DNA from: Escherichia coli O127:H6 str. E2348/69
GTDB lineage: Bacteria > Pseudomonadota > Gammaproteobacteria > Enterobacterales > Enterobacteriaceae
Length of the DNA stretch: 64,000 nucleotides
Strand: one strand, 5' to 3'
Assembly: GCF_000026545.1 (NCBI RefSeq)
Contig: NC_011601.1
The notes beneath the pieces were generated by a model. It searched no databases, was not told the origin of the DNA, and saw only the letters and a program-made list of their open reading frames with translations. Position 1 is the first letter of the stretch. The number at the start of each line of letters is the position of its first letter. Below are positions 56,748 through 58,656 of this stretch, one piece after another. The translations under genes and the position numbers were made by a program.

Positions 56748-57830
56748 ATGTCTAACGTGCAGGAGTGGCAACAGCTTGCCAACAAGGAATTGAGCCGTCG
56801 GGAGAAAACTGTCGACTCGCTGGTTCAGCAAACCGCGGAAGGGATCGCCATCAAGCCGCTGTATACCGAAGCCGATCTCGATAATCTGGAGGTGACAGGT
56901 ACCCTTCCTGGTTTGCCCCCCTACGTTCGTGGCCCGCGTGCTACTATGTATACCGCCCAACCGTGGACCATCCGTCAGTATGCTGGTTTTTCCACAGCAA
57001 ATGAGTCCAACGCTTTTTATCGCCGTAACCTGGCCGCCGGGCAAAAAGGTCTTTCCGTTGCGTTTGGCCTTGCCACCCACCGTGGCTACGACTCCGATAA
57101 CCCACGCGTGGCGGGCGACGTCGGCAAAGCGGGCGTCGCTATCGACACCGTGGAAGATATGAAAGTTCTGTTCGACCAGATCCCGCTGGATAAAATGTCG
57201 GTTTCGATGACCATGAATGGCGCAGTACTACCAGTACTGGCGTTTTATATCGTCGCCGCAGAAGAGCAAGGTGTTACACCCGATAAACTGACCGGCACCA
57301 TTCAAAACGATATCCTCAAAGAGTATCTTTGCCGCAACACCTATATTTACCCGCCAAAACCGTCAATGCGTATTATCGCAGACATCATCGCCTGGTGTTC
57401 CGGCAACATGCCGCGATTTAATACCATCAGTATCAGCGGTTACCATATGGGTGAAGCGGGTGCCAACTGCGTGCAGCAGGTAGCATTTACGCTCGCCGAT
57501 GGGATTGAGTACATCAAAGCAGCAATCTCCGCCGGGCTGAAAATTGATGACTTCGCCCCTCGCCTGTCGTTTTTCTTTGGCATTGGCATGGATCTGTTTA
57601 TGAACGTCGCCATGTTGCGTGCGGCACGTTATTTATGGAGCGAAGCGGTCAGTGGATTGGGCGCACAGGATCCGTATAACAACGTTATCCGCACCACCAT
57701 TGATCATTGTGCACATCCCATGTATCGGGATTATCTGCATCGCTATCTGGAAAATGCGCCTGGCGGACATATTCACCACGATCTTCAGCAATATGCTGAA
57801 GCATCGTGGCGGTATAACGATGATTTCTGA
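56748..57830 (+). pseudogene. scpA: methylmalonyl-CoA mutase scpA (sbm) remnant: N-terminal ~325 native codons, then out-of-context tail
   Basis: Starts [21 protein letters not shown]; 360 codons versus ~714 expected; lacks conserved [10 protein letters not shown] segment and B12-binding domain; 3' end overlaps convergent ygfI by ~145 bp. Confidence 0.8.
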
Positions 57831-58656
57831 TTGAATAAAGATATTCCTGCATATACATCGGCCTGTGCGGCGCATCAAAATATTTCAGCGTTGCCGGATT
57901 CACCAGTCGCCAGGCAAAATGCGGGATCACCGTCAGAAAATGTCCGCGCTCCACGGCGCTGATTTTGGCCATAAAACTGTAGGGACGATAAATAATGGTG
58001 GGATTGATCCCACAAGGTCGCATATTCGCATCAATCATTGCTTCGAAGTTGGCCCGGTTCTGAAAGCGCATTTGTAGCCAGGGTAGCTCCTGAAGCAACT
58101 CTTGCTCTTGTCGCTCTTCATAACGACGAGAAACGAGAAAGCCCAATCGCAGCGGCGGTAGTTCACTGATAGTCAGGTTTTCCAGTTCCTGAACTCGTGC
58201 AGATACATGCTGTGGGGAGATAATAAAATCTAACTGACGGTCAAAAAGATTATCGATAACGCCATTTGCGCTGAACTCAACTGGCTGGGCGGTCACGCCT
58301 TCGTACTTATCTCCGAGACTAATCAACTGATCAAAAATAATGGTCGGATAAGTATTATCTATGCCTATCACAATGTCTCGTGAACGACGTCCTGAGTTAT
58401 GGATTTCATTATCAATCGCAGAAAGTCGTTGATAAACCGGGAACAGTTTTTGATACAGTTCCTGTCCGGCTTTATTGAGGCTGATATTATTATCTTTGCG
58501 GGTAAATAGCGTATAGCCAATTTGTTCTTCCAGCGCGGCAATGCTTTTGCCAAATCGCGAAGCCGTCATATGGATTTTTTCTGCCGCCCGGGCAATATTA
58601 TTGGTTTGCGCTAATAAAATGAAATTGCGCATCTTTTTCGAAATAAAAATGTCCAT
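57685..58656 (-). CDS. ygfI: LysR-family transcriptional regulator YgfI (3' end possibly altered by adjacent deletion)
   Basis: 323-aa ORF; HTH begins near the internal Met ([25 protein letters not shown]), so true start may be 58632. Confidence 0.75.

What the first reader, a model, noticed from the sequence alone, without database searches (positions are those of the whole stretch)
57600..57840. Deletion of the sbm operon: truncated scpA abuts and overlaps convergent ygfI
The scpA frame matches methylmalonyl-CoA mutase through ...[13 protein letters not shown] and then continues into sequence that is antisense to ygfI. The ORF is 367 aa versus ~714 expected. The conserved active-site segment ([10 protein letters not shown], expected just before QDPYNN) is also absent, suggesting a further ~63-bp internal loss. 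The genes expected between scpA and ygfI in K-12-like genomes (argK/scpB/scpC, about 4-5 kb) are missing. The junction is near 57700, and the last codons of ygfI may be altered.
Basis: partly seen in the sequence, partly recalled or inferred. Interest (0 to 1): 0.6.

Follow-up and report, generated by a model that had tools for sequence, protein, structure and literature searches.

The report
Decayed sbm operon remnant, E2348/69
This is an ordinary scar of gene loss: three small-repeat-mediated deletions removed the dispensable succinate-to-propionate (sbm) operon of E. coli strain E2348/69, leaving half a mutase gene fused to a scrap of scpC and a neighbouring regulator gene (ygfI/srsR) with a rewritten tail.

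Summary
The window is E. coli E2348/69 (100% identity). Relative to K-12, the argP–yggE interval carries three deletions, each bounded by a short direct repeat of which one copy remains. (A) A 63-bp in-frame loss inside scpA (ACAGGA, 57665-57670) removes the [10 protein letters not shown] segment. (B) A 4273-bp loss (CATTGA, 57698-57703) runs from mid-scpA to 3' scpC, removing argK, scpB and most of scpC. (C) A 79-bp loss (CACGATCTT, 57777-57785) removes the scpC stop, the ygfI stop and the last 5 ygfI codons.

A and B are not strain-specific: each junction occurs in 1110 of 5426 complete E. coli genomes, including the B2 reference strains Nissle 1917, 536, EC958, SE15 and APEC O18. C occurs in 55 genomes.

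The results are a 360-aa chimeric ORF with half a mutase barrel and no B12 domain, and a 323-aa YgfI (293 native + 30 novel residues). The two ORFs overlap convergently by 146 bp. RefSeq already annotates all three pieces as pseudogenes. This is ordinary reductive decay of an operon described as silent. Interest is low.

The parts
56748..57830 (+). Chimeric ORF of 360 aa (367 aa if read from the upstream TTG at 56727). It consists of ScpA 1-308, a 21-aa gap, ScpA 330-339, ScpC 447-474, then 14 residues read antisense to ygfI.
   Evidence: ORF list. Translation and comparison with K-12 ScpA and ScpC. Pfam MM_CoA_mutase model positions 1-276 and 300-316 of 512 only, with no B12-binding domain. 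PGAP annotates 56748-57713 and 57690-57830 as partial pseudogenes.
57665..57670 (.). Junction A. This is the retained copy of the ACAGGA direct repeat that flanks a 63-bp in-frame deletion inside scpA (K-12 NC_000913.3 3061773-3061835).
   Evidence: The junction is present as a contiguous sequence in 1110 of 5426 genomes. The deleted 63-bp segment is present in 4285 genomes.
57671..57703 (+). A 33-bp island of scpA (codons about 330-339, [10 protein letters not shown]) left between deletions A and B.
   Evidence: 100% match to K-12 L003 2831-2869; junction alignment.
57698..57703 (.). Junction B. This is the retained copy of CATTGA (12 of 14 matches over CGCACyAyCATTGA) flanking the 4273-bp deletion from mid-scpA to 3' scpC (K-12 3061869-3066141). 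The deletion removes the rest of scpA, all of argK and scpB, and scpC codons 1-446, and it fuses the scpA and scpC reading frames.
   Evidence: The junction is contiguous in 1110 of 5426 genomes. The operon interior is present in 4311 genomes.
57704..57785 (+). scpC 3' remnant (codons 447-474, [28 protein letters not shown]), in frame with scpA'.
   Evidence: Alignment to the K-12 scpC 3' end. In other B2 genomes PGAP annotates the longer version as a partial 'acetyl-CoA hydrolase'.
57777..57785 (.). Junction C. This is the retained copy of CACGATCTT flanking a 79-bp deletion (K-12 3066224-3066302). The deletion removes the last 18 scpC codons and the scpC stop, plus the last 5 ygfI codons and the ygfI stop.
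   Evidence: The contiguous junction is found in 55 of 5426 genomes: 3 E2348/69 records and 52 of the 13TMH22 type.
57778..58656 (-). Native part of ygfI/srsR (codons 1-293). HTH_1 covers residues 8-65 and LysR_substrate covers residues 91-283.
   Evidence: Translation compared with K-12 YgfI shows 3 substitutions in 293 aa. Pfam domains. PGAP annotates srsR as partial, 'missing C-terminus', at exactly these coordinates.
57685..57777 (-). New 30-codon tail of the ygfI ORF ([30 protein letters not shown]) and its stop codon. The tail is read antisense through the scpC and scpA remnants and replaces the native DGTSH.

Best explanation
The interval is a decaying remnant of the sbm (scpA-argK-scpB-scpC) operon, produced by three successive illegitimate deletions between short direct repeats (6, 6 and 9 bp). 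That pattern is the classic footprint of replication slippage or microhomology-mediated deletion.

Shown:
- Deletions A (63 bp) and B (4273 bp) form an allele shared by about one fifth of complete E. coli genomes, including classic phylogroup B2 strains.
- Deletion C (79 bp) lies on top of that allele in E2348/69 and 52 other genomes.
- The surviving scpA'-'scpC ORF lacks half the catalytic barrel, the [10 protein letters not shown] segment and the whole B12-binding domain.
- argK and scpB, and all of scpC except a 28-codon remnant, are gone.

Inferred:
- The strain cannot run the B12-dependent succinyl-CoA to methylmalonyl-CoA to propionyl-CoA to propionate route.
- The loss was tolerated because the operon is silent, and encodes an incomplete pathway, even in K-12.
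- Deletion C converts YgfI/SrsR from 298 aa to 323 aa (293 native + 30 nonsense-derived residues). It keeps both recognisable domains, so the regulator may be functional, impaired or dead. I lean towards at least partly impaired and under weak selection, because ygfI is independently truncated by stop codons in other large lineages.
For: - Identity of the window: 100% to E2348/69.
- Colinearity: K-12 with the three deletions applied matches the window over 1913 nt with 45 mismatches, and the same repeat is found at both ends of each deleted segment in K-12.
- Population: junctions A and B each occur in 1110 genomes, including Nissle 1917, 536, EC958/ST131, APEC O18 and SE15. The operon interior is present in 4311 genomes. 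Junction C occurs in 55 genomes.
- Domain loss: Pfam. YgfI domains are retained.
- Further decay in relatives: a 39-bp deletion in 11 of 15 sampled B2 remnants.
- Selection: B2-private changes in scpA' are 19 nonsynonymous to 18 synonymous, against 5 to 14 among intact alleles.
- Independent lesions of the operon elsewhere: an scpC internal stop in CB6837 and partial operons in ES4 and Br_112_kylling.
- The operon is described as silent and as encoding an incomplete pathway (PMC5512728).
- ygfI stops: O157:H7 W193* (the exact 61-mer is in 845 genomes) and EC958/SE15 stops at codons 92 and 193.
- RefSeq annotates all three pieces as pseudogenes.
Against: - The remnant ORF is open in all 15 sampled B2 genomes. 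All three deletions internal to it (63 bp, the 4273-bp fusion and 39 bp) preserve the frame.
- The nonsynonymous fraction of B2-private changes (51%) is below the strict neutral expectation of 70-75% (binomial p 0.004-0.015).
- These points hint at residual constraint. They are also explained by import of variation from intact alleles through recombination: 10 of 10 B2 polymorphisms shared with non-B2 genomes are synonymous. The expected number of stop codons was also small, about 1.1.
- A C-terminally His-tagged SrsR still binds DNA in vitro (PMC9181523), so the extended YgfI may well be active. PGAP itself calls the equivalent 312-aa allele in 20Y000092 a protein, not a pseudogene.
Confidence: 0.93

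Rival explanations
1. The in-frame ScpA'-'ScpC' chimera is a maintained, functional neo-protein, for example an acyl-CoA-binding half-barrel or a regulatory fragment. On this view it is not a pseudogene.
For: The ORF is open in 15 of 15 sampled B2 genomes, at 347-364 aa. Deletions A, B and the 39-bp deletion all preserve the frame, which has a naive chance of about 1/27. The N:S ratio of B2-private changes is below the neutral expectation. The upstream region with the native start is retained. PGAP annotates it as a protein in some genomes (WP_000073273.1, WP_001338007.1).
Against: Only model positions 1-276 of 512 of the barrel remain and there is no B12 domain. The operon promoter is described as silent (PMC5512728). 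Further deletions of 39 and 79 bp keep nibbling at the ORF, and its C-terminus differs among lineages (347, 351, 360 and 364 aa). The nonsynonymous share is about three times the odds seen in intact alleles. All B2 polymorphisms shared with non-B2 genomes are synonymous, which points to recombination rather than selection on the remnant. About 1.1 stop codons were expected, so seeing none is unremarkable.
Confidence: 0.05
2. The 79-bp deletion C arose independently, and recurrently, in the E2348/69 lineage and in the 13TMH22-type lineage by slippage at the same 9-bp repeat. On this view it was not inherited or transferred once.
For: The two carrier haplotypes differ immediately to the left of the deletion (57759 and 57761, 16-18 bp away) and throughout scpA' (27 differences). 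E2348/69 lacks the 39-bp deletion that every 13TMH22-type genome has. A perfect 9-bp repeat 79 bp apart is a plausible slippage hotspot.
Against: Carriers share the same right-flank haplotype at 57946-58060 and at 58084. None of the sampled non-carrier B2 genomes has it in full. This fits one origin followed by a short recombination tract. The evidence is weak, however, because the same alleles also occur in non-B2 genomes.
Confidence: 0.35
3. The arrangement is an assembly or sequencing artefact of this one record.
For: None found.
Against: Three independent E2348/69 assemblies are identical across the region. Junctions A and B recur in 1110 genomes and junction C in 55 genomes from many laboratories.
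Confidence: 0.01

Closest known systems
E. coli K-12 sbm ('sleeping beauty mutase') operon scpA-argK-scpB-scpC with convergent ygfI/srsR (NC_000913.3 3060850-3067173)
   Same: Same chromosomal position between argP and yggE. The retained parts are 97-97.4% identical at the nucleotide level.
   Different: The window lacks 63 + 4273 + 79 bp. It has no argK and no scpB. It keeps only 318 of 714 scpA codons and 28 of 492 scpC codons. YgfI has a 30-aa substitute tail.
Common phylogroup-B2 remnant allele (e.g. FDAARGOS_1259, UPEC 536, Nissle 1917, EC958, SE15, APEC O18)
   Same: Identical junctions A and B and the same in-frame scpA'-'scpC fusion. PGAP annotates it as partial 'methylmalonyl-CoA mutase family protein' plus partial 'acetyl-CoA hydrolase'.
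   Different: Those genomes keep the 79 bp, so scpC' ends at its native stop and ygfI is the native 298-codon length. Many of them also carry a 39-bp in-frame deletion in scpA' that E2348/69 lacks.
13TMH22-type allele (13TMH22, 20Y000092, FDAARGOS_1253, AMSCJX02; 52 genomes)
   Same: Same 79-bp deletion with identical end points, and the same right-flank ygfI haplotype.
   Different: It also carries the 39-bp deletion and has a different left-flank haplotype. Its YgfI ORF is 312 aa rather than 323, and its chimera is 347 aa rather than 360.
Other ygfI/srsR pseudogene alleles (O157:H7 W193*; EC958 and SE15 stops at codons 92 and 193)
   Same: The same regulator is hit independently.
   Different: Those are premature stops that remove the effector domain. 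E2348/69 only swaps the last 5 residues for 30 others and keeps both domains.

Membership tests
Methylmalonyl-CoA mutase (ScpA/Sbm; Pfam PF01642 + B12-binding PF02310) | Complete MM_CoA_mutase catalytic barrel (about 512 model positions), including the HCQTSGW segment | tested here: not met
   Only model positions 1-276 (E 1e-126) and a 17-residue scrap at 300-316 are present. The 63-bp deletion removes [21 protein letters not shown].
Methylmalonyl-CoA mutase (ScpA/Sbm; Pfam PF01642 + B12-binding PF02310) | C-terminal cobalamin-binding domain | tested here: not met
   No B12-binding hit in the 360-aa ORF. The corresponding DNA lies inside the 4273-bp deletion.
Methylmalonyl-CoA mutase (ScpA/Sbm; Pfam PF01642 + B12-binding PF02310) | Orthology of the retained part to E. 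coli scpA | tested here: met
   97.4% nucleotide identity over 1175 nt to K-12 at the syntenic position.
sbm operon (scpA-argK-scpB-scpC) | All four genes present and intact | tested here: not met
   argK and scpB are absent, and scpA and scpC are fragments.
Pseudogene remnant formed by microhomology-mediated deletion | Colinear with an intact orthologous locus on both sides, with short direct repeats at both ends of each missing segment and one copy retained | tested here: met
   ACAGGA, CATTGA and CACGATCTT are found at both ends in K-12 and once in the window. The reconstruction is colinear with 45 mismatches over 1913 nt.
Pseudogene remnant formed by microhomology-mediated deletion | Relaxed selective constraint on the remnant | tested here: inconclusive
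   B2-private changes are 19 N to 18 S, against 5 N to 14 S in intact alleles (Fisher p 0.09). They remain below the neutral expectation (p 0.004-0.015). No stops or frameshifts were seen in 15 genomes, where about 1.1 stops were expected.
LysR-type transcriptional regulator SrsR/YgfI | N-terminal HTH_1 and LysR_substrate effector domain | tested here: met
   HTH_1 at residues 8-65 (E 4e-13) and LysR_substrate at residues 91-283 (E 1e-11). There are 3 substitutions compared with K-12 in residues 1-293.
LysR-type transcriptional regulator SrsR/YgfI | Native C-terminus and stop codon (298 aa) | tested here: not met
   DGTSH* is replaced by 30 unrelated residues. PGAP flags the gene as 'missing C-terminus'.
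LysR-type transcriptional regulator SrsR/YgfI | DNA binding and target regulation retained | not testable with these tools
   The only indirect hint is that C-terminally His-tagged K-12 SrsR binds DNA (PMC9181523). No solved homologue aligns over the C-terminus.

The most novel reading that the evidence does not exclude
The scpA'-'scpC chimeric ORF has stayed open through three frame-preserving deletions in every sampled B2 genome. It may be a retained, expressed protein fragment with a new role. Alternatively, the 79-bp deletion allele, which creates a 146-bp sense/antisense overlap and a new YgfI tail, may be an adaptive rewiring of SrsR that spread between B2 lineages by recombination.
Probability: 0.04. 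Interest if true: 0.45.

Novelty: already known. Interest (0 to 1): 0.13.

Why it matters
The biological significance is small. The result documents that E2348/69, and about 20% of complete E. coli genomes (the B2-type allele), cannot use the B12-dependent succinate-to-propionate route. It also shows that the adjacent regulator SrsR/YgfI (also proposed as DhfA) is altered or truncated in several major lineages.

There are three practical uses:
1. The junctions are clean lineage markers.
2. Metabolic models and engineering work in B2 chassis such as Nissle 1917 should not assume endogenous scp genes.
3. PGAP annotation of these remnants is inconsistent, calling them pseudogenes in some genomes and proteins in others.

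Tried and rejected
1. My first estimate was that deletion C is unique to E2348/69. It was based on the top-ranked rows and was wrong. Carriers with lower identity ranked below two-piece hits, and a junction query with a strict E-value found 55 carriers.

2. I argued that E2348/69 and 13TMH22 share two derived SNPs to the right of deletion C. Adding six more non-B2 genomes showed that those alleles exist outside B2. Single origin therefore remains only weakly favoured.

3. Pairwise dN/dS of 0.05-0.25 for scpA' at first looked like purifying selection. Partitioning the sites showed that the polymorphisms shared with intact alleles are all synonymous, while B2-private changes are about half nonsynonymous.

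4. Literature searches for a prior description of a B2-wide sbm deletion found nothing. The E2348/69 genome paper (PMC2612414) is not held, and one search had a syntax failure.

5. A PDB sequence search, intended to judge whether the YgfI C-terminus is structured, gave no homologue aligned beyond residue ~200.

6. The promoter and terminator scan of 56500-58850 gave nothing informative at the junctions.

7. I did not run structure prediction or the large protein-database searches, because they would not change the verdict.

Full report
**Identity and context.** A 2301-nt query spanning the finding is 100% identical to three complete assemblies of enteropathogenic E. coli O127:H6 strain E2348/69. 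From my own knowledge, this strain belongs to phylogroup B2. The gene order is argP, an scpA fragment, ygfI/srsR (convergent), yggE, argO, mscS. At the same position K-12 MG1655 has argP, scpA, argK, scpB, scpC, then convergent srsR (ygfI), yggE, argO, mscS. There, scpC and srsR overlap by 4 nt at their stop codons.

**What is in the sequence.** BLAST and alignment against K-12 show three separate gaps. In K-12, each is bounded by a short direct repeat, and the window keeps one copy.
- Deletion A is 63 bp, in frame, inside scpA. The repeat is ACAGGA, kept at window 57665-57670.
- Deletion B is 4273 bp. The repeat is CATTGA (12 of 14 matches over a longer stretch), kept at 57698-57703. It joins scpA codon ~339 to scpC codon 447 in frame and removes the rest of scpA, all of argK and scpB, and most of scpC.
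- Deletion C is 79 bp. The repeat is CACGATCTT, kept at 57777-57785. It removes the last 18 codons and the stop of scpC, plus the last 5 codons and the stop of ygfI.

Applying the three deletions to K-12 gives a sequence colinear with the window over 1913 nt, with 45 mismatches.

Two extended ORFs result. The first is a 360-aa chimera (367 aa from an upstream TTG): ScpA 1-308, ScpA 330-339, ScpC 447-474, then 14 residues read antisense to ygfI. The second is a 323-aa YgfI, with 293 native residues and then 30 residues read antisense through the scpC and scpA remnants. The two ORFs overlap convergently by 146 bp.

**Domains.** The chimera keeps Pfam MM_CoA_mutase model positions 1-276 of 512, plus a 17-residue scrap, and has no cobalamin-binding domain. 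It cannot be a mutase. YgfI keeps HTH_1 (residues 8-65) and LysR_substrate (residues 91-283). No solved homologue aligns across its C-terminus, so the structural cost of the new tail cannot be judged here.

**Population distribution.**
- The operon interior is present in 4311 of 5426 complete E. coli genomes.
- The 63-bp segment is present in 4285 genomes.
- Junction-spanning queries, with an E-value cut-off that only a contiguous match can pass, find junction A in 1110 genomes and junction B in 1110 genomes. No intermediate allele was seen, so the order of A and B cannot be resolved.
- Carriers include Nissle 1917, UPEC 536, EC958 and other O25b:H4-ST131 strains, SE15 and APEC O18. From my own knowledge these are all phylogroup B2 strains. 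Sampled non-B2 genomes (K-12, O157:H7, O26, O103, O111 and others) have the operon.

Deletions A and B are therefore an old, lineage-wide allele, not a feature of this strain.

Deletion C at first looked unique to E2348/69. That was an artefact of hit ranking. A better junction query finds it in 55 genomes: the three E2348/69 records and 52 with the haplotype of strain 13TMH22.

**One origin or two for deletion C.** The two carrier types differ to the left of the deletion. The nearest differences are 16-18 bp away, and the 13TMH22 type also has a 39-bp in-frame scpA' deletion that E2348/69 lacks. They share the haplotype to the right of the deletion at 57946-58084, which no sampled non-carrier B2 genome has in full. 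The same alleles also occur in non-B2 genomes. I therefore favour one origin followed by a short recombination tract, but only weakly. Recurrent slippage at the 9-bp repeat remains plausible.

**Is the remnant decaying?** In 15 sampled B2 genomes the chimeric ORF is open (347-364 aa). The only indels are the 39-bp and 79-bp deletions.
- Raw pairwise dN/dS is low, at 0.05-0.25.
- Site partitioning explains most of this. B2 polymorphisms whose two alleles both occur in intact non-B2 genes are 10 synonymous to 0 nonsynonymous, which indicates imports by recombination.
- Changes private to B2 are 19 nonsynonymous to 18 synonymous. Among intact alleles the counts are 5 to 14 (Fisher p 0.09).
- The private nonsynonymous share is still below the neutral 70-75% (p 0.004-0.015).
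- Only about 1.1 stop codons were expected.

The data fit relaxed constraint with recombination. They do not fully exclude residual constraint. Three consecutive frame-preserving deletions are a mild curiosity, with a naive chance of about 1/27.

**Function and mechanism.**
- *Shown:* the loss of argK and scpB, the reduction of scpA and scpC to fragments, and the microhomology footprints at the junctions.
- *Inferred from established knowledge of the pathway:* ScpA is the B12-dependent methylmalonyl-CoA mutase, ScpB the methylmalonyl-CoA decarboxylase and ScpC the propionyl-CoA:succinate CoA transferase (products as annotated). E2348/69 therefore cannot convert succinate to propionate by this route.
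- *Why the loss was tolerated:* the operon is described as silent and as encoding an incomplete pathway even in K-12 (PMC5512728). It also carries independent lesions elsewhere: an scpC internal stop in CB6837 and partial operons in ES4 and Br_112_kylling. Its loss is most simply neutral reductive evolution.

**YgfI.** YgfI/SrsR regulates stationary-phase stress and biofilm genes (PMC9181523). It has also been proposed as DhfA, an activator of dhaKLM (bioRxiv 10.1101/2021.12.22.473864). A C-terminal His tag is tolerated in vitro, so the 30-aa tail may be tolerated too. On the other hand, ygfI carries premature stops in O157:H7 (W193*; the exact 61-mer is in 845 genomes) and in EC958 and SE15 (codons 92 and 193). 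The gene is evidently dispensable in large lineages.

**Novelty.** RefSeq/PGAP already annotates the scpA fragment, the downstream fragment and srsR as pseudogenes in E2348/69. It annotates the equivalent fragments as pseudogenes in most B2 genomes. I found no paper that describes the B2-wide deletion explicitly. The phenomenon is nonetheless ordinary gene decay, and the feature is on record.

**Verdict.** Interest is low.

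Noticed in passing
L014 5997-5999 (O157:H7 TT12A ygfI codon 193); equivalent window position 58079: ygfI/srsR carries a TGG-to-TAG stop (W193*) in O157:H7. The exact 61-mer containing it is present in 845 of 5426 complete genomes. EC958 and SE15 (B2, ST131) have the same codon-193 stop plus another at codon 92. The regulator is therefore a pseudogene in several major lineages.
   Followed up: partly
window about 57033-57071 (alignment columns 285-323 of the scpA' alignment); L004, L006-L009, L016-L020, L022: A further 39-bp in-frame deletion in the scpA remnant, flanked by GCCGCC. 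It is present in 11 of 15 sampled B2 genomes (Nissle, EC958, SE15, APEC O18, the 13TMH22 type and others) and absent from E2348/69, 536, FDAARGOS_1259 and A24.
   Followed up: partly
L006 617-1672, L009 652-1695 and 1583-2521: PGAP annotation is inconsistent. The same kind of chimeric remnant is called a pseudogene in most genomes but a real protein in EC958 (WP_000073273.1) and 20Y000092 (WP_001338007.1). The deletion-C form of YgfI is called a pseudogene in E2348/69 and 13TMH22 but a protein (WP_000350817.1, 312 aa) in 20Y000092.
   Followed up: no
window 56748-57664 compared with L002-L009: The scpA remnant has a mosaic haplotype structure. For example, E2348/69 and EC958 share a variant block at 57305-57338 (also present in several non-B2 genomes), and Nissle and SK0189 carry a cluster of three synonymous changes at 56891-56915. 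This suggests recombination tracts from intact alleles running into the pseudogene.
   Followed up: partly
L011 4204-5682 (CB6837); H97 (ES4); H67 (Br_112_kylling): There are independent lesions of the sbm operon outside the B2-type allele: an scpC internal stop, a genome matching only 45% of the operon interior, and a partial scpA. In 26 genomes the operon interior matches but the 63-bp segment does not.
   Followed up: no
(one place 'on plasmids'): One record labelled as a plasmid carries the chromosomal B2-type scpA'-ygfI region. This is probably a mislabelled or misassembled replicon.
   Followed up: no
window 55280-55558 (- strand): A short LysR substrate-binding-domain fragment lies between rpiA and argP. 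It is annotated as a 231-nt CDS in E2348/69 and as the pseudogene yqfE in K-12. This is another old regulator remnant next to the locus.
   Followed up: no
PMC11587561, Figure 1 legend; L004 (Nissle 1917): An engineering paper lists the scp ('csp') genes as endogenous in E. coli Nissle 1917. The Nissle genome carries the deletion allele and has no argK or scpB, and no intact scpA or scpC.
   Followed up: no
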